Shown here piece by piece: positions 7,358 to 56,549 of a DNA stretch of 64,000 bases. The first letter of the stretch is position 1. Each line of letters begins with the position of its first letter. The position numbers and the translations under genes are program-made. The stretch lies in the IMG/VR virus record IMGVR_UViG_3300010938_000022; one strand, 5' to 3'. Below the pieces are notes generated by a model. It made no database searches, was not told where the DNA came from, and saw nothing but the letters and a program-made list of their open reading frames with translations. The stretch comes from an uncultured virus (IMG/VR IMGVR_UViG_3300010938_000022). Taxonomy: Duplodnaviria; Heunggongvirae; Uroviricota; Caudoviricetes.

Positions 7358-10100
<2,743 letters not shown>

Positions 10101-10101
10101 C

Positions 10102-11137
10102 ATGCAATTTAAATTAATACCAGGTGTGGATGAAGATTCGAATAAGTTAGTGAACGTAATAATAACGTTCACTAACTTTACTAGAGAGTTAGAAGCTTCA
10201 GCCCAATCATTAGGCTTGATTAATATTAAAATAGATATAATGAAAAGAGCTATGTTTGGTGAAGTAGCTACAAAGAAAATACAAGATTTAAGAAATTTAC
10301 CAAATGTTGAAAATGTATCAACAACCTTAGATAATTATATGGTGTAATATGTGGAATGAAGAATTGCCAGAACTGCCATTATAAAAATTGGGTAAATCTT
10401 GGCGATCTTGATGATCTAACAGCACAAGATGCTGAAGGTGTTGAATGTTATAAATATAAACATAAATGGGTGCTTGGAGATGGTGAAGTGCTTGATACGT
10501 TAATAGATTATTACTTCTATAACAGGAAAGAAGAATTTTCTAACATGGAAAGAGAAGAAATAGTAAATGGTATTAATGTAGTTAAAGGTTTGAAAAAGCC
10601 AAATTAATATGCGAAAAGCTCTAAAAAATATTAAGACAATACTTGATCNNNNNNNNNNTAGCCCATATGAGCAAGATACTGTTTGTAGAACAAAAGATGG
10701 TTTAGAGCATCTTATTATTATAGAGTCATTAAAATTTAAATTTTTATGTAAAAATGATGGGTCTATTTGGTTTGGATGGGTAGATACTAGTACAGATACT
10801 AACTTGATGCTTAGGAAGTATACTGTCAATAATCTAACTGAAGTATTTAACCATATTGACTTTTTAATACAATCAATGAGGGAACTATGAGGGAGTTATG
10901 AAAGAATCTGATATGATTATAAAGCCATCTGAAAAGATGGGTAAAGTAACTGTTGAATTCTCAGATATTGAGAAAGATGGTGTAAGGCAAATTGGTATGA
11001 GTGTAAAGATGGATCCAGTTCCAACTTGTGAAGAGGACTATACTGCCGCTCAACGTGCTGGACTTTTAGTTATTGAAATGTTTCATCAGGTAATGGACCC
11101 AGCAAGTCAAGCAGAAGACAAGACAAGACAAGAATAA
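10102..11137 (+). CDS. Four small hypothetical ORFs (10102-10347, 10356-10607, 10609-10890, 10898-11137)
   Basis: Packed ORFs; one spans the N-gap. Confidence 0.55.
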
Positions 11138-11300
11138 ATTATGCATTATTTAACACCTGATGAGATTGCATTCTTTATATCCAATAATGGCATTACAGAA
11201 TCATAGAATGGATTCAAAAATAAATTATGCATTATTTCACACCTGATGAGATTGCATTTTTTATATCCAATAATGGCATTACAGAATCATATCATGGATT
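11133..11300 (+). repeat. 86-bp tandem duplication of the 5' end of gene 11227; first copy is a 21-codon mini-ORF ending in TAG (11141-11206)
   Basis: MHYLTPDEIAFFISNNGITES* versus MHYFTPDEIAFFISNNGITESY. Confidence 0.9.
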
Positions 11301-11841
11301 AAGAGTGGTTCCTGGTAATTCTCCGATTGATTATTTGCTATTTCATATCGATAGGAATTATTTAGATTTCGATCCGTCTGATAAAAAATTTTTAAAGGCT
11401 GCCTCTGAAATTCTTAAATATATTCCTAAAGATAATGACGAATGGATAAAATTAATAAATCAATCTTCTCAGTCTCAGCAGCTAAAACAGTTGTTAATAA
11501 CGAATCTTGGTGGGCAATCTGTACAGCAAAGTCAGCCAAATTCACAGACTTATAGAATAACCTTAAAAAGTGGTAGAGTATTTGAGGCTGAAATTGGTGA
11601 TATAGGAAAAGATTGGATTTACCTTGGTTTAGGACCTGCTGGAAAGTACCAGTCACCTTGTCATAAAGTTTCGGTCATGAAGCAACTTGGATGGTTCTTG
11701 GGATATGATCCTAAAGGTAGGGTTCCTAATAATAAACACAATCCAGGTTCAACATCTACACGCAATACAATAATGTTTAGAAAGTATAGTAGATTGATAA
11801 CAGTTAAGAAAAGTAACATAGTATCAAAAGTTCCAATTTAA
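11227..11841 (+). CDS. RT-system paralog P1 (helical domain plus Sm/Hfq-like C-terminal domain)
   Basis: Aligns by eye along its full length with 43882..44463 and at both termini with 44630..45025. Confidence 0.8.
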   Translation: MHYFTPDEIAFFISNNGITESYHGLRVVPGNSPIDYLLFHIDRNYLDFDPSDKKFLKAASEILKYIPKDNDEWIKLINQSSQSQQLKQLLITNLGGQSVQQSQPNSQTYRITLKSGRVFEAEIGDIGKDWIYLGLGPAGKYQSPCHKVSVMKQLGWFLGYDPKGRVPNNKHNPGSTSTRNTIMFRKYSRLITVKKSNIVSKVPI

Positions 11842-11992
11842 GAGGCTGTGACTTCTCCTTATGTCTAAAAGCTATACGGTTGTTGTTACTTTGGGAGAGT
11901 AAGTATAGTATATAGACTTTATGTAGCCACTCACGCTCCGAGGCATGAGTAGCGTTTTTTCCAATCGTTATGATTGTCAAGTTACAGCCTCT
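11841..11992 (+). ncRNA. Structured ncRNA copy 1 (circular permutation of the RT-adjacent ncRNA)
   Basis: 14-bp terminal inverted repeat 11841-11854/11979-11992; internal stems covary with 44452-44617; shared GATTGTCAAG, ATGTAGC and CGTTT. Confidence 0.8.
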
Positions 11993-12056: not shown

Positions 12057-12440
12057 ATGCTGTAGAACGATCAAAAACTTTATATTGTAACTAGAAGTGA
12101 TTTATCGGCTGGACTTCAGGCAGCTCAAAGTTGCCACGCACTATCAAAATTCTACGAAGAGCATCGCATTATAGCAAGTAAATGGTATAATGAATCTAAT
12201 TATATCTGTTTACTTGCCTGTAAAGATGTTGATCATCTAACATTAGTCAAAGTAATTTTAGAAAATAACAATCTTAATATATCAGTATTCTATGAACCTG
12301 ACTTAAATAATTCTATAACAGCTATTGCAGTAGAGCCTTCCGATACATCTAGAAGGCTTCTTGCTAACCTTCCGTTGGCATTACGAGATAATAAATCTAA
12401 CAACATATCTAACAAAGAGAAAGAATTAGTGGGTCTGTAG
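12057..12440 (+). CDS. pth2: Peptidyl-tRNA hydrolase Pth2-like protein with an in-frame amber codon at codon 3 (missing from the ORF track)
   Basis: GGAG RBS, then ATG CTG TAG AAC GAT CAA; KLYIVTRSDLSAGLQAAQSCHAL...VFYEPDLNNSITAIA...LANLPLAL. Confidence 0.8.
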
Positions 12441-12509
12441 CATAGTGGCAGTGCGGTATTACCTGCAAAGGCGAAAGAGATGGAGGTTCGATTCCTTCCA
12501 GACCCGCCA
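12431..12509 (+). tRNA. Atypical tRNA (Cys-like CU-GCA-AA loop, poorly paired anticodon stem)
   Basis: Acceptor GGGTCTG/CAGACCC, GGTTCGATTCC T arm, encoded CCA. Confidence 0.55.
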
Positions 12510-12513
12510 CAAA

Positions 12514-12601
12514 GGGTGAGTAGTTTAAGCGGAGCAGTTGATAGAGAACATCAGATGTAAAAGTCTGAAGAACGGAGGTTTGAATCCTTCCTCACCCACC
12601 A
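12514..12601 (+). tRNA. Atypical tRNA with enlarged D loop and 8-nt anticodon loop
   Basis: Acceptor GGGTGAG/CTCACCC, anticodon stem TCAGA/TCTGA, CCA end. Confidence 0.55.
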
Positions 12602-12608
12602 TTTTTAC

Positions 12609-12685
12609 GCGCTTGTAGCTCAATTGGTTAGAGCAGCTACCTCTAAATTAGAAGGTTGTGGGTTCGAGTCCCACCAAGCGCACCA
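12609..12685 (+). tRNA. tRNA with CUA anticodon (amber suppressor candidate)
   Basis: GCGCTTG/CAAGCGC, canonical D and T arms, loop CT-CTA-AA, only 3 bp in the anticodon stem, CCA. Confidence 0.7.
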
Positions 12686-12691
12686 GTTGTA

Positions 12692-12767
12692 GGCTCGGTA
12701 GTTTATTTGGTAAAACACATTAAGAGTATCTAATGGAAGGTGGGTTCGAATCCCACCCCTTGCTCCA
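12692..12767 (+). tRNA. Degenerate tRNA-like element
   Basis: Good T arm GTGGG-TTCGAAT-CCCAC and CCA; mismatched acceptor stem. Confidence 0.4.
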
Positions 12768-12768
12768 G

Positions 12769-12840
12769 GCTCTCATAATTCAATTAGAACACCGGTCTCT
12801 AAAACTGGTAATGTAGGTTAAAATCCTACTGAGAGCGCCA
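12769..12840 (+). tRNA. tRNA with CUA anticodon on a Trp-like anticodon arm (amber suppressor candidate)
   Basis: GCTCTCA/TGAGAGC, anticodon arm CCGGT-CTCTAAA-ACTGG, discriminator G, CCA; non-canonical T loop TTAAAAT. Confidence 0.7.
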
Positions 12841-40108: not shown

Positions 40109-43100
40109 ATGGCAATATTCAAATTACCACCTGGAAGTGATCTTGTCGATGCTCAATTGGTTCAGGTAACTGGACCAGATGGCTTAGTACATGGCTTCCT
40201 ATATGACAGCAATACTAAAACTTTTTATGCAAAAGAAAGTCAAATAATAATACCATCGTCACATGGTAATACCCATATAGCTGCCGATCCTGTACCAAAT
40301 GCTACCCAAGTATTACCAGGATTGATGAGTGCTGATGATAAAGTTAAACTTGATGCAATGATGCAGATGCGCCTTGGTGTCTTGGGGTATCAAGGTAGTG
40401 GATTCCCAGATGATGGTGGTTGGATGCAAGGTGATATTATCTTTGCAGCTGGTTCAGAATTCATATCATTAGAAAGATTTGGAAATACAATTAGATTCAC
40501 AGTTGATAGTCCAATTCCGCTTAACTGTGCTTGCTTTGAACCTGGATGTAAAGTATTATTAGAAAATGGCACAGAAAAACCAATTGAAAATATTAGAATT
40601 GGTGATAAAGTTATCACACATACAGGAAGCGTAAAAACTGTAACAAAAACATTTATACGTGAATATGATGATGACATTATTGATATAAATACATATGGGC
40701 ATAATGGTAAATTTTCAGTAACAAAGGGCCATCCATTATATGCATATTCTGCTAAAGTTAATAGCAGAAGAACGTCTAAAATAAGAAATGCTACTGGATT
40801 AATATTAGATGATAAAGGTGAAAATTGGGTATTATCTCATGAAATTGAAAAAGACGATTTTTTAGTTAAAAGATATAGTCACAATAATGTTGTGGATATT
40901 AAGTATTTGGTATTATCAGAAATTTATAGCAAACAATATATTATATTAAATAATAAAATTTATAAGGCGTCAAGGCATAAGTCAGGCAAATTGTTTAAAA
41001 ATGGTATGGCTGTTGGCATACCAAATTCGTTATTAATAGATAATGATCTAATAAAATTTTTTGGATATTACCTTGCAGAAGGTTGTGCCAGTTATAAAAA
41101 TGGCATTAGATTTACAGTTCACAAAAATGAACTAGCTATAGGCGATATTGGATGTGAATTGATAAGAATTATACGTACAAAATTTGGTATAGAGCCAAAA
41201 GTTCGTGCGCATCCTACTTGCGATAATGCAGTAGAAATTCAGTTCTTTTCAAGCATCCTAGTAGATTTACTAAATGAATGGTTTGGAATTACGTCAAAAA
41301 CTAAGACTATTCCAACTTGGATATTAAATTTAGATCCACAATTACAATATAATTTAATTGTTGGAATACTTCAAGGAGATAGTAGTACACGTTTTTCTAA
41401 TAAAGGTACTATAAGAATAGAAATTCCAAACGAGCAATTGATTTCACAATTAAAGTTTATCTCTGAAAGATCTGGCTTAGAATTCAGAAGTTTTAAACCA
41501 AGAATTTGTACAACAGGATATAAATCAAGCAACTTAAATTATAATATTGAGTATACTGCAACACACAACAGACAACTATTTTACGATTTAACTGGTGTTA
41601 TGCCAGAAGAGTCAAAGGCTTACAATTATTTAAAAACAGAACGAGAAACTTTACATAAGGTAAGATCGGTATTGTATAGGAAGTATACTGGTAAAGTTTA
41701 TAATTTAGAGGTAGAGGACGATCATTCTTATGTTGTTGACGGGTTAGTAGTCCATAATTGTGAGGAGTGTGCTGAAATATTCTGGATTCAAGATGAAACT
41801 GACACCGCTTCAATACGCCCACCAAGTTGTGCTGGTAAATTACCAGGTGTTAATTCTTATGGGGAGCTAAAAGTTTACTTGATGCCAGAGAGCACGATAG
41901 TAGATCCAGCAAATCCAGTACCATCACTAAATTTAAAAGTCAATCAACCATCATTTATTTTTAAAAGATATGATGATGCAATAGCACCAGGAACTGCAGA
42001 AATTGATGTTGTTTTGAAACGTCGTAGTTCAGGTGTTACTAAAATTGGTTGGGCTATGACACCTGGTGCTCTTGGTGTTCCAGAATGTGTATGGATGATG
42101 GGCGATGATAATGGCGGTAATGAAATAAGATTTGAACTAGGCCCAGAATCAGAGCCAGGATTGCTTGGAATGCTCTTATATAAGGGGCATACTCTAACAA
42201 GGCAGATGGCTACAGTAACAGGCTACGATTCAACTATATTATCAACTAACTTGTATAAAGTTAGAAAATGGTCTGTACTAAATGAAGCTCCAGTAGGAGA
42301 AACATTAGATGCTAAAAATATCTGGAGATATGAAAATCCAGAAAATTCAGCAAGTTCAGCTACAAATCCAAAGAAATTAATATTAGATGCTACAATTGAC
42401 CTACTAGAAGTAGGAACCTTAGTTCAACTTTGGGGCTTCCAAATAGGTGAGGTAAACGGTGTTAGATTGTACCGTTGGTACTTTAATCTAAGACCAAGAT
42501 TTAATGAAAAGAACGCATACTCTTTATCTGGAATAATTAAATTTGGTGAATTACTTGAATCAAGAAACGAAGTAACTGGCCCAGGAATAACAGAATTAAC
42601 AGCGTATGATTCTAATGTATCAGATATAAGGTTATTTGAACGCACCCTATGGGGTATTACTGGATTTGAAGATAGACTGTTATTATCTGATGACGGTTTA
42701 GAGGTTAGTAGCAGCGCTACTGACGCAATTGCAACTAACGAACCATCAGGTGAAGCTATAAATAACGAATATGTAGCAGACATAGACCCATCATTACCTG
42801 GATTGAGAGTATTCAAAACAGATCCTGATACATATGCAGAGCGTCCTGTTTATATTTGGCATAGAGGAAACCATAACAATCTATATGCTAGAATGTTAAT
42901 TGGAAGACCAGATTCATCTGTTTTCCCTCCATATGATATCCTTTTAGGTGCACCAATTGATAGTCTTGATGACCTATACTTAAAAGTGATAAGAAGGGGA
43001 CAATTTACAAAGGGTCCATTTGCTGGTCAATACTATGTTGTAGTGAAAGGTGCTAACTTTAGAGATATTCCTCAAAGTGGTGATTTAAGAATATTAACAA

Positions 43101-43867
43101 ACGTATTTAGAAATAATGTTTGGAAATATTATTACAAAGCAGCCTTCTCTAATTGGGATGACAATGCTACAGTGTTAATCGGCCTTGATAAGCAATTCCC
43201 ATTTGATGACGATTTAAATTCTACTACATTTGATATACCATCACTAACAACAGTAGTTCAAGTATTACATGCTGATTACACTGCACCAGCGTTGAGAATA
43301 GAATTCTCTGTAAATCAAACTTCAGGTGAAGAAGTTGTTCAAGCTCAATTCAAAGTTGGACAACTTGATATGTCAACAACATATGAATTAGATGAAGAAA
43401 TTACACCACAAACTGTTGAAGACAATTTGGTTAGAGGATTAGAACCTGGTTATACTACAAGCCAAGTTTACACACAAGTTGGATTTATAGACTCACAAGG
43501 TGAACAAGTAGAAGCAGAGCCAGATAACTTCATGGTTTATGAAGGCGGAACAACAATAGGTAGCGATGCACAATCTATTGAATTGTGGAACGAATTAGAA
43601 TTATTATATAGAGATGGTCAACTATGGGTATGGTGGAATAAACTATTGGTTCCACCAAGTACAACTGATAGTGCTAATTTGCCTACACCAGTAGCAGTAA
43701 ATACACCTTATTTCCCAATCGCATCACAAACTGGTAAGTTTGGTATGAGATTGTGGCCAGGAGCTACTGTTAGATTGATTGAGGTTCGTGACCAATTATT
43801 AGGATTCTCAGAATATAATTATGGTCAATTAGAAATTTCTAGTGGCTCTAGTGGTTCTAGCGCATGA
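40109..43867 (+). CDS. Virion structural/tail-associated protein containing an intein (about 843 aa after splicing)
   Basis: AT...PGLMSADDK.KLD repeat as in 21295 and 23670; intein at aa 142-550. Confidence 0.75.
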   Translation: MAIFKLPPGSDLVDAQLVQVTGPDGLVHGFLYDSNTKTFYAKESQIIIPSSHGNTHIAADPVPNATQVLPGLMSADDKVKLDAMMQMRLGVLGYQGSGFPDDGGWMQGDIIFAAGSEFISLERFGNTIRFTVDSPIPLNCACFEPGCKVLLENGTEKPIENIRIGDKVITHTGSVKTVTKTFIREYDDDIIDINTYGHNGKFSVTKGHPLYAYSAKVNSRRTSKIRNATGLILDDKGENWVLSHEIEKDDFLVKRYSHNNVVDIKYLVLSEIYSKQYIILNNKIYKASRHKSGKLFKNGMAVGIPNSLLIDNDLIKFFGYYLAEGCASYKNGIRFTVHKNELAIGDIGCELIRIIRTKFGIEPKVRAHPTCDNAVEIQFFSSILVDLLNEWFGITSKTKTIPTWILNLDPQLQYNLIVGILQGDSSTRFSNKGTIRIEIPNEQLISQLKFISERSGLEFRSFKPRICTTGYKSSNLNYNIEYTATHNRQLFYDLTGVMPEESKAYNYLKTERETLHKVRSVLYRKYTGKVYNLEVEDDHSYVVDGLVVHNCEECAEIFWIQDETDTASIRPPSCAGKLPGVNSYGELKVYLMPESTIVDPANPVPSLNLKVNQPSFIFKRYDDAIAPGTAEIDVVLKRRSSGVTKIGWAMTPGALGVPECVWMMGDDNGGNEIRFELGPESEPGLLGMLLYKGHTLTRQMATVTGYDSTILSTNLYKVRKWSVLNEAPVGETLDAKNIWRYENPENSASSATNPKKLILDATIDLLEVGTLVQLWGFQIGEVNGVRLYRWYFNLRPRFNEKNAYSLSGIIKFGELLESRNEVTGPGITELTAYDSNVSDIRLFERTLWGITGFEDRLLLSDDGLEVSSSATDAIATNEPSGEAINNEYVADIDPSLPGLRVFKTDPDTYAERPVYIWHRGNHNNLYARMLIGRPDSSVFPPYDILLGAPIDSLDDLYLKVIRRGQFTKGPFAGQYYVVVKGANFRDIPQSGDLRILTNVFRNNVWKYYYKAAFSNWDDNATVLIGLDKQFPFDDDLNSTTFDIPSLTTVVQVLHADYTAPALRIEFSVNQTSGEEVVQAQFKVGQLDMSTTYELDEEITPQTVEDNLVRGLEPGYTTSQVYTQVGFIDSQGEQVEAEPDNFMVYEGGTTIGSDAQSIELWNELELLYRDGQLWVWWNKLLVPPSTTDSANLPTPVAVNTPYFPIASQTGKFGMRLWPGATVRLIEVRDQLLGFSEYNYGQLEISSGSSGSSA
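40532..41758 (+). mobile_element. 409-aa intein with LAGLIDADG homing endonuclease
   Basis: CFEPG..V...G..K.IE.I..GD.V.TH; T.GHP; FGYYLAEG and VGILQGDS; VYNLEV...HSY...G.VVHN followed by Cys. Confidence 0.93.
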
Positions 43868-43881
43868 TTGAGGTCTCAACA

Positions 43882-44463
43882 ATGGATCCAAATGATATAG
43901 CAGAATGGGTTTCTAATGATAGATCTAAAAATCTAATAGTAGAATCATTATTCGGATATCGTGTTAATGCTGGAAGTTCACAAATAGATAGATTTATATT
44001 AATGATTGATCAGGCATTTGTTGACTGGGATTTAAAAAATAAAAAATTTATAGACTTGGCTAATAAATTTTTTGGTAAAATACCATCAGTACAAGAATGG
44101 GAAAAATTAATAGAAAATTCAAATCAGTCTCCTGAATTAAAAGAGAAATTGATAGCATTATTATCAAGTAAAGATGTAACTACACAAGGCCCTAGAGATA
44201 TTATAATACATCATAAAGATCCTAATATAGGTCAGATAAGAGTATCTGATATACGAGACAGTGGGAAAGATTATTTTTATTGTGCTGTAGGTAAACCAGG
44301 TTCATATATAAGATGGGTTAGAGGCGGTTGGGGTAAATGGAGATCAGTAGCCAAAGATTGGTTTTTTGGCTATATTAGCAATAATACAACAAAGTACCTG
44401 CAAAAATATAGTAAGATAATAACCGTTAAAAAGGCAAATATAATAAAAATAGATAATTTATAA
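43882..44463 (+). CDS. RT-system paralog P2 (helical domain plus Sm/Hfq-like C-terminal domain)
   Basis: GAGGT RBS before ATG 43882; homologous to 11227..11841. Confidence 0.8.
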   Translation: MDPNDIAEWVSNDRSKNLIVESLFGYRVNAGSSQIDRFILMIDQAFVDWDLKNKKFIDLANKFFGKIPSVQEWEKLIENSNQSPELKEKLIALLSSKDVTTQGPRDIIIHHKDPNIGQIRVSDIRDSGKDYFYCAVGKPGSYIRWVRGGWGKWRSVAKDWFFGYISNNTTKYLQKYSKIITVKKANIIKIDNL

Positions 44464-44617
44464 TTCAGGATTGTCAAGCTTAACTGCTTCTCTCTTGCGC
44501 TTAAAAGTTATGATTAGATAAAACATTTGAGAGTGTTAATCATAATAAATAAGCATAATGTAGCTGCATATCTCTAAATTATGCAACCGTTTCTTTAATC
44601 CTGAATTATAAATTATC
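44452..44617 (+). ncRNA. Structured ncRNA copy 2, upstream of the RT; retron-like terminal stem
   Basis: Perfect 21-bp inverted repeat GATAATTTATAATTCAGGATT (44452-44472 / 44597-44617), unpaired G at 44473, four internal stems covarying with copy 1. Confidence 0.85.
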
Positions 44618-44629
44618 ATTGGAGATAAA

Positions 44630-45025
44630 ATGGAGCCAGATCAAATGGAGCCAGATCAAATCGCAGAGTTTGTTTCAAATGACAAGCATAAACTTATATC
44701 TGAAAATGTTGCAGGCCAATACATAAAAGGTGGTTACAAAATAACTATGAAGCGTGGTACTGTGATATTCGCAACAGAAATACAAGTATCTAAGTATAAT
44801 CCTGATATAGTGTGTGTTGGACAAGGACCAACTGGTACATATTTTAGTAAGACGAAAAGAGTTGGAAAATGGCCAGATGGTTGGATACAGTCGAAGCAGC
44901 CTGTAAAAGTTGATGTTGGACAAGGTGGCTATCCAGCATTCTTTAAAAAAGGTTCTGGTGGTGTTACGAAGAAATATGAGAAATTTCTAATTATCCAACC
45001 GAATGGTTGGATAATTAGTATATAG
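44630..45025 (+). CDS. RT-system paralog P3 (Sm/Hfq-like domain only), in frame with the RT through TAG
   Basis: GGAG RBS; PDQIAEFVSND leader; G.GP.G.Y and KY....I motifs shared with P1 and P2. Confidence 0.8.
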   Translation: MEPDQMEPDQIAEFVSNDKHKLISENVAGQYIKGGYKITMKRGTVIFATEIQVSKYNPDIVCVGQGPTGTYFSKTKRVGKWPDGWIQSKQPVKVDVGQGGYPAFFKKGSGGVTKKYEKFLIIQPNGWIISI

Positions 45026-45028
45026 AAT

Positions 45029-46447
45029 ATGATAACACTAAAAGATTGCTTACTAGCTTATCCAATATCAAATGCTGCTTTAGATGTTATAAACAAAATT
45101 ATATTCAATCCAAGAAAAGCATATACAGTATCTTGTGATAACAAATCATATTTTGATTTTGGCTCATCAATAACAAAAGAAATAAAAAAGATTACAAATA
45201 AGATTAGTAATCGTACATTCAAGTTTAAGCCAGCCCGTAAAATAACAAAGAAGGCTAAATTAAATAAAATCAGAGATATTTATCTAAGTACATGGGATGA
45301 TAAAATAGTAGAAACTTGGCTTAATAAATCGTTGAATATTTTACTAAAAGATTGGTTTACAAAAAATTCTTATGCATATAGAACTGAAGAACTCGGTCTT
45401 GATTCATGCCAGAATCATATATCGCAGAATGCATCTAAAAACACGTTCTTTATTAAAAGAGATATATCAAAATACTTCTATAGTATTGATAAAAACACTC
45501 TATTGGATCAATTAGCACTACTTATAGATAAAAATGACTTTTTATATAAATTAATTGAACAGAGAGTCAACTTTGAATATGTAGACAAAGATGGAATACA
45601 TAAATCTGAAATAGGTATACCATTTGGATCTCCATTAGCATGTACTTTAAGTAATATTCATATTACACATATAGATAAAGGAATGAGTCAATTTGGTATT
45701 AAATACTTTAGATATGCAGATGATGTTTTGATAATGAGTAAAAGTAGAGAAGAAGCATTAAAAGCCGCAGAATTTTTTGATAATGAAATTGAAAAGTTAA
45801 AATTAAAATTAAAACCATCTCATAAATTAAGCTTTTCATGGATTGACTGTGAAGGATTTACAAAGGTAACACAATTTAGTCATTTAGGATTGATGTATAA
45901 ATCAGACGGGCAAATCAGATTGGCTGTCGAAAAACAAAGAAAGTTAATAAACTTTGTCTGTAGAGAATTAAAAAAGAATCAAGCTAAAGTTAGAAAAATT
46001 TCATCAATAGATGATAGATTGAGACTGATAATAGGTAGTGTAGATAACGTTTTAAATAAACGTATTAGAAGCGCTGCTATTATAGATTATTATTTAAAGC
46101 ATGTTAATGATGAATTACAGTTAAAAAACATGGATAGAATAATAGCAGAAAGGATTATATCAACTGTGCTTGATAAACCTTTTAGAAAGAAATTGTTTAG
46201 AGAAATATCATATAAAAAATTGAGGGACTTTGGATTACAAAGTTTGGTTCATAGAAATAGGTTATTTAGACATGGCCATCTACATGTAGCATTCTTATCA
46301 TTACATAATAAAACTCTGATTGATAGATATAATAACTCTATGGATCGTAGAAAAGAGAAAATAGACCAAATCAAATTAACAAAGAAGCTCAAACAGATAA
46401 AAAATAGTTCAGAAATTAACAAAGAAGCTCAAACAGATAAAAAATAA
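45029..46447 (+). CDS. Reverse transcriptase (group-II-like RT domain plus thumb/X-like domain; no endonuclease domain)
   Basis: K.RDI....WDDKIV, SYAYR, KRDISKYFYSID, GIPFGSPL...LSNI, YFRYADD, F.HLG, YY.....QL..MD..I, GLQSL. Confidence 0.93.
   Translation: MITLKDCLLAYPISNAALDVINKIIFNPRKAYTVSCDNKSYFDFGSSITKEIKKITNKISNRTFKFKPARKITKKAKLNKIRDIYLSTWDDKIVETWLNKSLNILLKDWFTKNSYAYRTEELGLDSCQNHISQNASKNTFFIKRDISKYFYSIDKNTLLDQLALLIDKNDFLYKLIEQRVNFEYVDKDGIHKSEIGIPFGSPLACTLSNIHITHIDKGMSQFGIKYFRYADDVLIMSKSREEALKAAEFFDNEIEKLKLKLKPSHKLSFSWIDCEGFTKVTQFSHLGLMYKSDGQIRLAVEKQRKLINFVCRELKKNQAKVRKISSIDDRLRLIIGSVDNVLNKRIRSAAIIDYYLKHVNDELQLKNMDRIIAERIISTVLDKPFRKKLFREISYKKLRDFGLQSLVHRNRLFRHGHLHVAFLSLHNKTLIDRYNNSMDRRKEKIDQIKLTKKLKQIKNSSEINKEAQTDKK
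46373..46446 (+). repeat. 34-bp direct repeat (period 40) at the RT 3' end
   Basis: AAATTAACAAAGAAGCTCAAACAGATAAAAAATA x2. Confidence 0.9.
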
Positions 46448-46450
46448 TGT

Positions 46451-47029
46451 ATGAAATTAACCTTATTAGAAGGTATAGTTCCAAATAAAGTATACCTATT
46501 CCTAAAAAATTTAGTAAACAAAAAGAATGTATCATTAAATGAAGTAGTAATGTTATATGAGTACATGTATGGCCATATAGCAGGTGATGACTTATGGAAA
46601 GACGCTAATGGGATATTAGATTTATATGAGCATTTCTCTAGAAAAGTAGATGATAAAGAGGGCCTAGCTGATTACATTATAGGACTTAGTGTACATCCAA
46701 GTTGGATTGCTAGCTTGGTATTAGTTGGTAAAGACCTTGGTGATGATTTTGCAGATAGATCATATAAATTTAAAAGTGAAGATACCTTTAGACAGGTGCT
46801 ACAATCTTTGATAAACAAAGAATGGGGAGCTATGTCAATATTAATTCAAGATATGTTGAATGCTAATATTGATTACTTTGATAATATAGGAAATTCAAAT
46901 CCAGAATTGATGTTAAAGTTAGCAGATATCATGGATAATGAATTGGATGATATTTACTTTAATAAGCAAAAGTCAACCAATCAATATAGTTTTGAAGCTT
47001 TACAAAAATACGGACCTATTAAATTATAA
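46451..47029 (+). CDS. Helical hypothetical protein with MKLTLLEG leader, directly downstream of the RT
   Basis: Starts 3 nt after the RT stop. Confidence 0.65.
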   Translation: MKLTLLEGIVPNKVYLFLKNLVNKKNVSLNEVVMLYEYMYGHIAGDDLWKDANGILDLYEHFSRKVDDKEGLADYIIGLSVHPSWIASLVLVGKDLGDDFADRSYKFKSEDTFRQVLQSLINKEWGAMSILIQDMLNANIDYFDNIGNSNPELMLKLADIMDNELDDIYFNKQKSTNQYSFEALQKYGPIKL

Positions 47030-55065: not shown

Positions 55066-55635
55066 ATAAGAGTTTCTGAATTCTGTGGACTAAGTAGAGC
55101 CAAAATTTGGCAAGATTGGCTACTAGCTTCAGCCCCTGACTTATATACTAATTTGATGAAAATATTAAATGATCCAAAAGGTGGTTGTAAGAAAAATACT
55201 CAAGGTATGATAGACGTATACTCTGAATTATTGAAAAGAAAATTAGGTGACAAACTTAACCTATTCTTAAAAAAAGAATTTCCAAATGTGATAGATAATT
55301 CTCCTAAGTCTGTATTTATGAAGTCAAAACGTTTAAATACAGATGTTGAAAAGTATAAAAACATAAAAGAAGCTAATAAACATAAAGTTTTCAAAAATTA
55401 TAATCCTGCTATATTAACATTTCCACAAAAATTAATTATCATAGATCCAGATTTAAATGAATTGCAAAAGAAAGTAAATATATTCGTTAAAGATAAGGTT
55501 GGTGCTGACTACATTATAATAGAGGATAGAGCATATATAGAATATTTTTTGCCAAAATATAGAGCAGAGTCAGCAAAATATCCAAAAGAATTGAACGAAA
55601 TTAGCATATGGCGTAAAAATAACCTTTTACATTAG
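55060..55635 (+). CDS. Hypothetical protein
   Basis: 191-aa ORF. Confidence 0.55.
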   Translation: MQIRVSEFCGLSRAKIWQDWLLASAPDLYTNLMKILNDPKGGCKKNTQGMIDVYSELLKRKLGDKLNLFLKKEFPNVIDNSPKSVFMKSKRLNTDVEKYKNIKEANKHKVFKNYNPAILTFPQKLIIIDPDLNELQKKVNIFVKDKVGADYIIIEDRAYIEYFLPKYRAESAKYPKELNEISIWRKNNLLH

Positions 55636-56549
55636 TGGGTACTCTGGCCACGGGAATCATGCATATAATAATGAGCAATATCAGTATCTTGCATTATAAT
55701 TGGTTCTGCTTCTGGCCACCTTCCCTTGATAACAAATCTAGCATAATTATAAGCAGCTTCAGCATTTTTCATTATAATTGGTTCTGCTTTTTTCCATCTT
55801 CCATTGATAACGATAGCAGCATAGTCAGATAATCTCTGGGCAAAATAGTCAGATCCATCATCATATTTTTCAAATCTTTGGAAAAAATCTTCATGAAGTG
55901 GCTCTAATAAAGATCTATAATTTGATAGACTAGTATCTTCATCATTTATATCTTTTATCTGCATAAAGTCTAGGCGTATATCTGGTTTAGTAAACTGAAT
56001 GTGAGGTTTACTGTCTTTTGATATAATATAAATCTTTTGATAATTTTCAATATATTGCATAGCTTGGCAGTCTTTGTAGCTTTTGCGGGTACACCATTTC
56101 GTACCCTCTCCCATAATTGAGAGAGATTCTGGGTTACTTACTTCCCATAATTTATAATCACCATCTTGGTTAATTAGTTTTACGCCTGGAAGTTTCTCAG
56201 GGTTTACTTGGAAGGCCCCTTCTCTTTTGCTTCCTGTTTCTGTGAATTTTTCTAGTTCTGCTTCTACATCATGAATAGTCTTGTATTGATTTAGATCTTT
56301 TTGTTGTAATCTTGATTGGTGCTGTTTGAATTGGCTTATTACTTCTTTTATACGGTGGTTGTCTTCTGGTACTCTTATGTTCTTAAATTTAATTTGTTTT
56401 AAGACCCATTCTGCGTATTTGTTGGATGGATCTATATCATTTATAATATTGATTAGCTTTTCTTCTGATATATCTAGGCTTGAGGCAACTATTTTTAATT
56501 GCTTCATTACATTAATATTCAACGATTCAGATAAATAAGATAATTTCAC
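55632..56549 (-). CDS. Protein with a GTKWCT (PcfJ-like) domain and RW.EAEPII repeats; MKLSYLSES leader
   Basis: Motifs read from the translation. Confidence 0.6.
   Translation of the reverse strand: MKLSYLSESLNINVMKQLKIVASSLDISEEKLINIINDIDPSNKYAEWVLKQIKFKNIRVPEDNHRIKEVISQFKQHQSRLQQKDLNQYKTIHDVEAELEKFTETGSKREGAFQVNPEKLPGVKLINQDGDYKLWEVSNPESLSIMGEGTKWCTRKSYKDCQAMQYIENYQKIYIISKDSKPHIQFTKPDIRLDFMQIKDINDEDTSLSNYRSLLEPLHEDFFQRFEKYDDGSDYFAQRLSDYAAIVINGRWKKAEPIIMKNAEAAYNYARFVIKGRWPEAEPIIMQDTDIAHYYMHDSRGQSTH

What the first reader, a model, noticed from the sequence alone, without database searches (positions are those of the whole stretch)
11227..11841. Three-member paralog family with an Sm/Hfq-like fold and a variable inserted loop
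Seen: shared N-terminus (PDEIAFFISNN / PNDIAEWVSND / PDQIAEFVSND, followed by I-x-E); a helical domain in P1 and P2 only (KKF...IP...EW.KLI..S.QS..LK..LI); and a C-terminal domain YRITLKSGRVFEAEIGDIGKDWIYLGLGPAGKY ... KYSRLITVKKSNIVS (P2 KYSKIITVKKANIIK; P3 YKITMKRGTVIFA...GQGPTGTY...KYEKFLIIQ). Established: Sm1 (V.LK.G..F.G.....D...I.L) and Sm2 (I.I...NI..I) motifs are separated by variable loop L4, and Sm/Hfq rings bind U-rich RNA. Inference: RNA-binding ring subunits for the CGUUU(U/C)UU tract. The unrelated basic/aromatic loops could give specificity. An RT plus pseudoknotted RNA plus Sm-type ring would parallel yeast telomerase.
Basis: partly seen in the sequence, partly recalled or inferred. 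Interest (0 to 1): 0.78.

Follow-up and report, generated by a model that had tools for sequence, protein, structure and literature searches.

The report
Sm-like proteins beside a phage reverse transcriptase
Three related genes in a large phage encode proteins with a predicted Hfq/Sm-type barrel carrying a variable basic loop, and relatives of these genes always sit beside a reverse transcriptase and a structured RNA, so they are probably that enzyme's nucleic-acid-binding partners.

Summary
P1 (11227-11841), P2 (43864-44463) and P3 (44630-45025) are the only 3 of 432 window ORFs that match a family profile built without them (E 1e-52, 2e-54, 4e-13). The family has no Pfam, PHROG, NCBIfam or PADLOC match.

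The AlphaFold2 model of P1 has mean pLDDT 89.6. It shows an N-terminal helix, a four-helix domain and a five-stranded C-terminal barrel. Hfq proteins are the best structural matches (Z 6.1-6.4, rmsd 1.9 A). These scores are modest, and sequence searches find no Sm or Hfq family.

The variable segment lies between strands 3 and 4, the Sm loop L4. It is 5-76 residues long and has net positive charge in 45 of 48 members.

Barrel-bearing relatives lie directly upstream of the orthologous reverse transcriptase (RT) in 5 of 5 huge-phage loci, and in 0 of 75 loci with other RTs. A structured RNA of about 150 nt accompanies them. I found 12 copies, and 11 of 13 pairs in one helix show compensatory changes.

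The RT resembles class-2 UG enzymes (UG26, UG17/DRT10). RNA binding, ring assembly and specificity for the U-rich tract are not shown. I read the proteins as nucleic-acid-binding subunits of a phage RT-RNA particle.

The parts
11227..11841 (+). P1, 204 aa: N-terminal helix (res 6-15), four-helix domain (res 33-93), linker, C-terminal barrel (res 103-204)
   Evidence: ORF; AF2 model with mean pLDDT 89.6; family profile E 1.2e-52
11533..11838 (+). P1 C-terminal Sm/Hfq-like barrel (res 103-204): strands 108-113, 118-125, 130-135, 189-194, 198-203
11632..11790 (+). P1 insertion in the strand 3-strand 4 loop (L4), res 136-188, net charge +8, 6 aromatic residues
11841..11992 (+). Structured RNA copy 1. 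Its closing stem starts at the last base of the P1 stop codon. Inside are helix P2, a pseudoknot candidate, stem-loop 3, a U-rich tract and a small hairpin.
   Evidence: nhmmer E 1.2e-14
43864..44463 (+). P2, 199 aa, same architecture as P1; its start overlaps the stop of the upstream 1252-aa gene
   Evidence: E 1.9e-54
44455..44614 (+). Structured RNA copy 2; its closing stem includes the last codons and the stop codon of P2
   Evidence: nhmmer E 2e-9
44630..45025 (+). P3, 131 aa: N-terminal peptide joined directly to the barrel, with no helical domain. It ends in TAG, in the same frame as the RT.
   Evidence: E 3.6e-13
45029..46447 (+). Reverse transcriptase, 472 aa, class-2 UG-like / group-II-intron-like
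   Evidence: Pfam RVT_1 1.7e-22; PADLOC UG26 4e-37, UG17 3e-33, UG4 8e-31, Drt9 1.5e-25; NCBIfam group II RT 6e-38, below its cut-off
11129..11214 (+). 86-nt tandem duplicate of the P1 ribosome-binding site and first 24 codons, 94% identical, closed by TAG

Best explanation
P1, P2 and P3 belong to an undescribed protein family that travels with a reverse transcriptase and a structured non-coding RNA of about 150 nt in large T4-like and huge phages. Each protein starts with a short conserved helix. P1 and P2 then have an acidic four-helix domain. All three end in a five-stranded Sm/Hfq-like barrel whose strand 3-strand 4 loop (L4) carries a long, strongly basic and aromatic insertion that differs between paralogues. 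I think they are the nucleic-acid-binding subunits of the RT-RNA particle. In this reading the barrel and its insertion hold the structured RNA, roughly one protein species per RNA cassette, and the N-terminal parts dock to the RT or to each other. Shown here: paralogy, predicted fold, position and composition of the insertion, and tight, specific linkage to the RT and the RNA. Inferred: binding to RNA, cognate pairing of protein and RNA, any ring, and what the particle does. By analogy with DRT9 and DRT10, it would synthesise repetitive or homopolymeric DNA from a short template.
For: Paralogy.

Fold: the AF2 model has mean pLDDT 89.6. VIA-align against 48,161 chains puts Hfq first (3hfo_A Z 6.4, rmsd 1.9 A, 52 residues aligned; 1kq1, 6gwk and 4y91 Z 6.1). 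The top Foldseek rows are Sm, LSm and Hfq, including an Hfq engineered with a long L4 loop, although at E 0.05-0.4. ESM Atlas structure neighbours carry Hfq families in 5 of 10 rows and the RimP C-domain in 2.

Insertion: it is 5-76 residues long (median 47), has median net charge +8 and is positive in 45 of 48 members. Two members have almost no insertion. A strain 90-95% identical carries an 18+3 nt insertion inside the P3 loop.

Linkage to the RT: barrel-bearing ORFs lie directly upstream of the RT in 5 of 5 orthologous IMG/VR loci and in 0 of 75 loci with other RTs. Of 10 homologues looked up, 7 share their contig length with an RT homologue.

Linkage to the RNA: 12 copies were found, and only in these loci, among 82 sources totalling 1.13 Mb. 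RNA-to-protein counts near the RT are 2:3, 1:2, 2:2, 2:2, 1:1 and 3:3. In P1, P2 and the first gene of L001 the RNA closing stem starts within a few bases of the stop codon or overlaps it.

Precedent: class-2 UG RTs work with structured template RNAs (PMC12632851, Results read; PMC9226505, passages read).
Against: No sequence profile links the domain to LSM or Hfq. There are no Pfam hits at E <= 0.01 for P1-P3 or for 69 homologues, and no PDB sequence hit. The structural scores are middling: no chain reaches Z >= 8 and no Foldseek match reaches E <= 0.001. Designed SH3 barrels, the BirA C-terminus, a cytochrome domain and WYL domains score within about 2 Z units. The N-terminal helix that completes a canonical Sm fold is not matched, because the alignments start at residue 103. 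The Arg-Gly of the Sm2 motif (recalled, not from a call) is absent. The pairing of one protein with one RNA is not strict: the window and L002 have one more protein than RNA, and a remote copy in L088 has no RNA beside it. Nothing distinguishes RNA binding from binding of a single-stranded DNA product.
Confidence: 0.5

Rival explanations
1. The barrels bind the single-stranded DNA made by the RT rather than the RNA. They would act like telomere end-binding proteins or WYL sensors, and each variable basic loop would be tuned to the repeat written by its neighbouring template RNA.
For: WYL domains that bind ssDNA (DriD 7tzv Z 4.4; CapW 9c5g Z 4.0) are among the structural matches. The basic, aromatic insertion would suit ssDNA as well as RNA. 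The tract after stem-loop 3 differs between RNA copies, as the loops differ between proteins. DRT10 products are long ssDNA repeats (PMC12632851, Results read).
Against: Hfq scores higher than WYL domains. No cDNA product is known for this system. An automated test for template-resetting repeats after stem-loop 3 was not significant.
Confidence: 0.2
2. The proteins are effectors or adaptors of the system and do not bind nucleic acid. They would take the place of the SLATT protein of DRT10, with the conserved N-terminal domain doing the work and the barrel serving as a protein-protein module.
For: The N-terminal domain is the most widely conserved part. It also occurs with unrelated C-termini in many of the 74 profile hits. 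SH3-type barrels often mediate protein contacts. No SLATT or other effector is found beside the RT.
Against: The copies beside the RT in L003-L006, and P3 itself, lack the N-terminal domain but keep the barrel. The part tied to the RT is therefore the barrel. The loop composition points to nucleic acid.
Confidence: 0.12
3. They are targets of a diversity-generating retroelement: the RT would rewrite the variable loop from a template repeat.
For: An RT lies next to paralogues that have a hypervariable C-terminal segment between conserved flanks.
Against: No 45-nt window of the three candidate intergenic regions matches anywhere in the window with 13 or fewer mismatches on either strand. No long imperfect repeat links the loops to any region. 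The loops differ in length and at all bases, not only at adenines.
Confidence: 0.02
4. The neighbourhood is incidental: these are ordinary small phage proteins of Sm-like fold, as found in cyanophages, with no functional tie to the RT.
For: Weak BFVD matches (E 0.008-0.1) to uncharacterised cyanophage proteins, two of them named Sm-like domain proteins. P1 lies 32 kb from the RT.
Against: Adjacency in 5 of 5 orthologous loci against 0 of 75 others, across RTs only 43-47% identical to the window's and in both gene orientations. P1 carries its own copy of the RT-associated RNA.
Confidence: 0.05

Closest known systems
Hfq / Sm / LSm RNA-binding barrels
   Same: Predicted five-stranded bent barrel. 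Hfq chains are the best structural matches (Z 6.1-6.4, rmsd 1.9 A over 50-52 residues). The variable segment sits in loop L4, where Sm proteins also vary. The sequence pattern loosely resembles the Sm1 and Sm2 motifs.
   Different: No profile match to LSM or Hfq. The N-terminal Sm helix is not matched. The L4 insertion is far longer (median 47 residues) and strongly basic. The barrel is fused to an N-terminal helix and often to a helical domain. Ring assembly is unknown.
DRT10 (UG17) and DRT9 (UG28) class-2 UG reverse-transcriptase systems
   Same: An RT that scores on the UG26, UG17, UG4 and Drt9 profiles. It is accompanied by an RNA of about 150 nt with a long closing stem, a multi-branched core and a short single-stranded tract just after a stable stem-loop. 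That is the published position of the DRT10 template (PMC12632851, Results read).
   Different: The system is encoded by lytic-type huge phages, not by bacterial defence islands. There is no SLATT protein. It has one to three RNA copies and one to three Sm-like proteins. No cDNA product is known.
UG27 systems of gut phages (Mestre et al. 2022, PMC9226505)
   Same: A phage-encoded class-2 UG RT with two accessory proteins of unknown fold and a predicted structured RNA in the adjoining intergenic region (passages read).
   Different: The window RT scores much lower on the UG27 profile (2.4e-14) than on UG26, UG17 or UG4. The UG27 accessory clusters were not available to compare. The phage lineages differ: T4-like capsid and freshwater sources here.
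Yeast telomerase RNP (TERT, TLC1 RNA, Sm7 ring)
   Same: An RT plus a structured RNA with a pseudoknot candidate plus Sm-fold proteins. Class-2 UG RTs have been proposed as relatives of TERT (PMC12632851). The yeast details are recalled, not from a call.
   Different: No evidence here for repeat synthesis, chromosome ends or a heptameric ring. Here the Sm-like genes are dedicated to the module and physically linked to the RNA genes.

Membership tests
Sm/LSm/Hfq superfamily | Five-stranded, strongly bent antiparallel beta-barrel | tested here: met
   AF2 model strands 108-113, 118-125, 130-135, 189-194, 198-203, with pLDDT mostly above 90. Hfq tops VIA-align at Z 6.1-6.4. Sm, LSm and Hfq top Foldseek at E 0.05-0.4. 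Hfq clusters appear in 5 of 10 ESM Atlas rows. This rests on a predicted model only.
Sm/LSm/Hfq superfamily | N-terminal alpha-helix packed on the barrel | tested here: inconclusive
   Helix 84-93 is separated from the barrel by a low-confidence linker. Structural alignments begin at model residue 103 and Hfq residue 14-16.
Sm/LSm/Hfq superfamily | Match to the LSM or Hfq sequence profiles (Sm1/Sm2 motifs) | tested here: not met
   No Pfam family at E <= 0.01 for P1-P3 or for 69 homologues. The profile of 48 sequences finds no Sm or Hfq chain in the PDB at E <= 10.
Sm/LSm/Hfq superfamily | Hexameric or heptameric ring | not testable with these tools
   No usable result; see Tried and rejected.
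Sm/LSm/Hfq superfamily | Uridine-binding pocket residues (Sm: Asn of loop L3 and Arg-Gly of loop L5; recalled, not from a call) | tested here: inconclusive
   By eye in the alignment. Loop L5 has a nearly invariant Asn but no Arg-Gly. The position of the Sm1 Asn is aromatic. No residue-level superposition was available.
DRT10 (UG17) system | RT of the UG17 group | tested here: inconclusive
   PADLOC RT_UG17 3.3e-33, but RT_UG26 4.1e-37 and a generic RT model 9e-39 score higher. No curated cut-off and no tree.
DRT10 (UG17) system | Adjacent SLATT effector | tested here: not met
   No SLATT family in the Pfam scans of 80 window ORFs or of 11 neighbouring ORFs in L002-L006.
DRT10 (UG17) system | [quoted passage not shown] | tested here: met
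   All 12 copies fold into a closing stem, helix P2, stem-loop 3 and a single-stranded tract. In P2, 11 of 13 pairs show compensatory changes. Only the architecture is met; the templating itself is untested.
DRT10 (UG17) system | A-B-A' template-resetting repeat and tandem-repeat cDNA | tested here: inconclusive
   Direct repeats of at least 4 nt occur in the 20 nt after stem-loop 3 in 5 of 12 copies, against 2.9 expected from shuffles (P 0.125). The automatic boundaries were unreliable in about half the copies. The cDNA cannot be tested here.
UG27 phage systems | UG27 RT with accessory clusters 337 and 346 | tested here: inconclusive
   RT_UG27 2.4e-14, weaker than other UG groups. The accessory cluster sequences were not at hand.
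Diversity-generating retroelement | Template repeat / variable repeat pair that differs at adenines | tested here: not met
   No 45-nt match with 13 or fewer mismatches for the three candidate regions, on either strand.
Retron | Retron-type RT | tested here: not met
   NCBIfam retron_St85_RT scores 59 bits against a cut-off of 235.

The most novel reading that the evidence does not exclude
The locus encodes a phage-borne, telomerase-like ribonucleoprotein. In it, dedicated Sm-fold proteins load in cis onto the template RNA that starts at their own stop codon. P3 would be made both free and as a P3-RT fusion, by suppression of the in-frame TAG by the phage's own tRNA(CUA), a Gag-Pol-like arrangement. 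Sm-type proteins partnering a TERT-related RT would then predate or parallel the Sm7-telomerase RNA partnership of yeasts.
Probability: 0.12. Interest if true: 0.9.

Novelty: new variant of a known kind. Interest (0 to 1): 0.68.

Why it matters
Class-2 UG reverse transcriptases have recently been shown to write repetitive DNA from short RNA templates, and have been proposed as relatives of telomerase. All characterised examples are bacterial defence systems built from an RT, an RNA and sometimes a SLATT protein.

This module differs in three ways. It is carried by huge lytic-type phages. It holds several template-like RNAs. It has its own family of Sm/Hfq-like proteins, roughly one per RNA.

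If the proteins do bind the RNA, this would be the first prokaryotic-type RT particle with dedicated Sm-fold subunits. It would be a tractable system for asking how such RNPs assemble and what a phage gains from one. It would also give names to two currently unannotated families: at least 74 protein clusters and at least 225 RT clusters in metagenomes.

Tried and rejected
- **Oligomer prediction.** Four copies of the P1 barrel (res 103-204, alignment A4) gave no answer (score 0.00 in both runs, controls not run). This says nothing either way about a ring.
- **RNA evidence.** No RNA holder was listed for 43800-46500, so expression and RNA ends could not be examined.
- **DGR reading.** Rejected.
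- **N-terminal domain fold.** The separate model (pLDDT 80.6) has no convincing structural match (VIA best Z 3.6; Foldseek best E 2.1).
- **Relatives of the P family in collections.** The sequence search of the phages collection with P1 found nothing at E <= 1. IMG/VR scans with P-family queries found nothing. Two alignments were too diverse for the pattern scan. IMG/VR relatives were reached through the RT instead.
- **Whole genome.** None is held for the window.
- **Earlier findings.** All three look-ups returned nothing.
- **Upstream protein family.** The 530-627-aa proteins upstream of the P genes in L002-L004 and L006 are related to one another. They are not related to the window's intein-bearing neighbour. 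Their window homologue lies 10 kb away at 55632-56549, so I did not count them as part of the module.
- **Telomere-like repeats.** None were found at the contig end near the RT in L003 or in the window.
- **A-B-A' enrichment test.** Not significant and technically weak.
- **Literature.** Full-text searches for Sm-like with reverse transcriptase, ncRNA and phage-encoded, and for huge or jumbo phage with reverse transcriptase, telomerase-like and DRT10, listed no paper describing this module. The jumbo-phage survey PMC7824862 mentions no Sm-like or Hfq protein.

Full report
**Setting**

The window is part of a large, AT-rich (about 32% G+C) tailed-phage genome.
- It has a T4-type major capsid protein and prohead protease, a GroEL homologue, tail and baseplate genes, nucleotide-metabolism genes and a tRNA array.
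- The nearest capsid protein in the phage collection is only 38% identical and comes from a 595-kb uncultured phage.
- No whole genome is held for the window.

**The observation**

The ORF at 11227-11841 encodes the 204-residue protein P1.
- P2 (43864-44463): BLASTP of P1 against all 432 stop-to-stop ORFs of the window gives E 1.4e-25, 34% identity over 199 residues.
- P3 (44630-45025): the same search gives E 0.004 for the C-terminal part, plus an 11-residue N-terminal match.
- A profile built from 43 outside homologues, leaving out all window members and the two P3-like proteins, hits exactly these three ORFs: 1.9e-54, 1.2e-52 and 3.6e-13. P3 matches through its N-terminal peptide and its C-domain separately.

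**The family**

None of the three proteins matches Pfam, PHROGs, NCBIfam or PADLOC.
- A word-based search found two relatives.
- A full HMMER profile search of 1.84 billion cluster representatives found 74 proteins at E <= 0.001, of which 49 are at E <= 1e-10.
- I scanned 69 of the 74 against Pfam. I left out the two window proteins, two long repetitive proteins that look spurious (P0058, P0070) and an 86-residue fragment (P0072). No shared family appeared.
- All members looked up come from metagenome assemblies.
- Many hits share only the N-terminal 100 residues or so and carry other C-termini. Others, like P3, have only the short N-terminal peptide and the C-domain. A few have a 200-residue N-terminal extension.

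**Structure**

P1 was folded with a 48-sequence alignment and gives a confident model (mean pLDDT 89.6). The pTM of 0.54 fits two domains on a flexible linker.
- N-terminal part: residues 6-15 form a helix, and 33-93 form four helices.
- Barrel: five strands at 108-113, 118-125, 130-135, 189-194 and 198-203.
- Residues 136-188, between strands 3 and 4, form an excursion with short strands and one helix.

Three separate comparisons point to Hfq/Sm-type barrels.
- VIA-align against 48,161 PDB representatives ranks Hfq proteins first: 3hfo_A at Z 6.4, rmsd 1.9 A, 52 residues; 1kq1, 6gwk and 4y91 at Z 6.1. LSm and Sm chains score Z 4.0-4.6.
- Foldseek finds nothing at E <= 0.001. Its top rows are nevertheless Sm, LSm and Hfq chains, including an Hfq engineered with a long L4 loop.
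- The ESM Atlas's own model of the protein has Hfq-family clusters in 5 of its 10 listed neighbours and the Sm-like RimP C-domain in 2.
- BFVD gives only weak matches to small cyanophage proteins, two of them named Sm-like.

The limits of the fold call are real.
- Z stays below 8.
- Designed SH3 barrels, the BirA C-terminus, a cytochrome domain and WYL domains are close behind.
- The N-terminal Sm helix is not matched.
- Sequence profiles do not connect the domain to LSM or Hfq.

I therefore call it an Sm/Hfq-like small barrel, not a member of the LSM or Hfq families. The N-terminal domain modelled alone (pLDDT 80.6) has no convincing structural neighbour.

**The variable loop**

The insertion lies between strands 3 and 4, which is loop L4 in Sm nomenclature.
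- Across 48 members it is 5-76 residues long (median 47).
- Its median net charge is +8, it is positive in 45 of 48 members, and it is rich in aromatic residues. The N-terminal domain is acidic, with a median charge of -4.
- Two members have almost no insertion, so the barrel is complete without it.
- Contigs of a strain 90-95% identical carry an 18+3 nt insertion inside the P3 loop, so the loop changes quickly.

**Linkage to a reverse transcriptase**

P3 is followed three bases later by a 472-residue RT.
- It scores best on PADLOC profiles of class-2 UG groups: UG26 4e-37, UG17 3e-33, UG4 8e-31 and Drt9 1.5e-25. A generic RT model scores 9e-39.
- It also scores on the group II intron RT model, far below that model's cut-off.
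- It has at least 225 homologues at E <= 1e-10, on contigs up to 364 kb.
- Of 10 P-family proteins looked up, 7 share their longest-contig length with one of these RT homologues. This is an indirect sign of co-residence.
- An IMG/VR scan with an RT alignment returned 80 loci. Five of them (L002-L006, 43-47% identical over the full length, in records of 125-364 kb) are orthologues.
- The P-family profile hits one to three ORFs directly upstream of the RT in all 5 of these loci, and nothing in the other 75.
- In L003-L006 these genes are divergent from the RT; in L002 and the window they are co-directional. The adjacency therefore survives rearrangement.
- In the two records rated 98-100% complete, the only copies in the whole record are those beside the RT.

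**Linkage to a structured RNA**

P1 and P2 are each followed by a region of about 150 nt that folds far better than shuffles (z -4.4 and -3.3).
- A metagenome fragment (L001) shows the same layout: gene, RNA, second paralogue.
- The intergenic regions beside the P-like genes of L002-L006 hold the same element, giving 12 copies in all.
- An nhmmer profile finds those 12 copies and nothing else in 82 sources totalling 1.13 Mb.
- Rfam has no match.
- Each copy folds into a long closing stem, a bipartite helix (P2), a second stem-loop and a single-stranded tract that starts with (C)GU, usually followed by a small hairpin.
- On a plain MAFFT alignment, RNAalifold recovers P2 with 13 pairs, 11 of which show compensatory changes.
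- A pyrimidine run 5' of P2 can pair with the purine run in the P2 loop, and the two change together between loci. I read this by eye and did not test it statistically. The purine run can also pair locally.
- RNA-to-protein counts near the RT are 2:3 (window), 1:2 (L002), 2:2 (L003), 2:2 (L004), 1:1 (L005) and 3:3 (L006). A remote third copy in the L002 record has no RNA beside it.
- In P1, P2 and the first L001 gene, the closing stem begins at or within a few bases of the stop codon.

**Comparison with what is known**

- DRT10 (UG17) and DRT9 (UG28). The Results of PMC12632851 describe DRT10 as an RT, a SLATT protein and a 137-nt RNA with a central stem decorated by stem-loops. A 9-nt template sits just downstream of an essential stem-loop and is copied repeatedly, in a telomerase-like way. 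DRT9 uses a conserved poly-U template. The window's RNA has the same general layout, and a short U-rich or repeat-containing tract sits in the corresponding place.
- My automated test for template-resetting repeats was not significant: 5 of 12 copies against 2.9 expected, P 0.125. It also suffered from unreliable boundaries.
- No SLATT gene is present.
- A second DRT10 preprint (10.64898/2026.04.29.721553, passages read) likewise describes all three UG17 subtypes as tripartite SLATT, RT and ncRNA modules.
- Passages of PMC9226505 describe UG27, a class-2 RT of gut phages with two accessory proteins of unknown fold and a predicted RNA. This is the closest published analogue in kind. However, the window RT scores poorly on the UG27 profile (2.4e-14), and I could not compare the accessory proteins.
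- Two full-text searches listed no description of this module.

**Mechanism**

- Shown: paralogy, predicted fold, loop position and composition, and specific linkage to the RT and the RNA.
- Inferred: the barrel and its basic loop bind nucleic acid. That nucleic acid is most likely the neighbouring RNA, because gene and RNA are interleaved and roughly equal in number. The N-terminal helix, common to all forms, would dock the protein to the RT or to other subunits.
- A close rival is binding of the DNA product.
- The ring and the specificity for the U-rich tract remain untested (see Tried and rejected).
- The DGR reading is rejected.

**A related point worth following**

P3 ends in TAG, and the RT start codon lies one codon later in the same frame.
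- Read-through would give a 605-residue P3-RT fusion. The other six TAG-ending ORFs extend by only 0-10 residues.
- The phage carries two tRNAs with a CUA anticodon.
- It also has a PTH2-like gene whose only in-frame ATG is followed by TAG at codon 3. The Pfam PTH2 match (2.3e-9) starts at residue 7.
- A contig of a related strain spans the junction without gaps.
- The in-frame arrangement alone has a one-in-three chance, so this is a lead and not a finding.

Noticed in passing
window 45023-45031, 12609-12685, 12769-12840, 12057-12440: P3 ends in TAG and the RT ATG follows one codon later in the same frame, so read-through would give a P3-RT fusion. The phage encodes two tRNAs with anticodon CUA. 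It also has a PTH2-like gene (Pfam 2.3e-9) whose only in-frame ATG is followed by TAG at codon 3. TAG ends 7 of 79 ORFs, and the other six extend by 0-10 residues if read through.
   Followed up: partly
window 11129-11300, 43870, 44623-44661, 46373-46461: Recent tandem duplications sit at the edges of the module's genes. There is an 86-nt duplication of the P1 start, and 15-nt duplications at the starts of P2 and P3 that related strains lack. A 40-nt duplication at the RT 3' end is also skipped in related strains. The window holds several further in-frame tandem duplications elsewhere (periods of 84 and 42 nt; 78 nt).
   Followed up: partly
window 11841-11992 and 44455-44614; L001 1015-1190; L002 7858-8003; L003 7230-7384 and 7833-7983; L004 7237-7390 and 7829-8000; L005 6822-7009; L006 7086-7234, 7237-7390 and 7844-7984: A structured RNA family that is not in Rfam, with 12 copies. 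It has a long closing stem and helix P2, where 11 of 13 pairs show compensatory changes. It also has a candidate pseudoknot whose two strands change together between loci, and a (C)GU-initiated single-stranded tract after stem-loop 3 that differs between copies.
   Followed up: partly
window 40109-43867: A 1252-aa protein with an intein (Hint and intein-splicing profiles, about residues 141-553) lies directly upstream of P2 and overlaps its start. The host protein was not identified.
   Followed up: no
window 55632-56549 (-): A 305-aa protein with internal 78-nt repeats. It is homologous (E 1e-27 to 1e-33) to the N-terminal part of the 530-627-aa proteins that sit directly upstream of the P-like genes in L002, L003 and L004. 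The related L006 protein did not match it directly. In the window it lies 10 kb from the RT.
   Followed up: partly
window 12431-12840: Rfam finds five tRNA-like genes in the array, but ARAGORN finds three. The two extra ones (12514-12598 and 12697-12758) were not typed.
   Followed up: no
window 8481-10100: A phage-encoded GroEL-type chaperonin (Cpn60_TCP1, 5.5e-76) lies among the head genes.
   Followed up: no
window 46451-47029: The 192-aa ORF after the RT has a weak PADLOC match to a type II restriction enzyme model (4.6e-5). UG26 RTs are reported to sit beside a Vsr-like PD-(D/E)XK nuclease in 9 of 35 cases (PMC9226505, passage read). I did not check whether this ORF is conserved in the related loci.
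   Followed up: no
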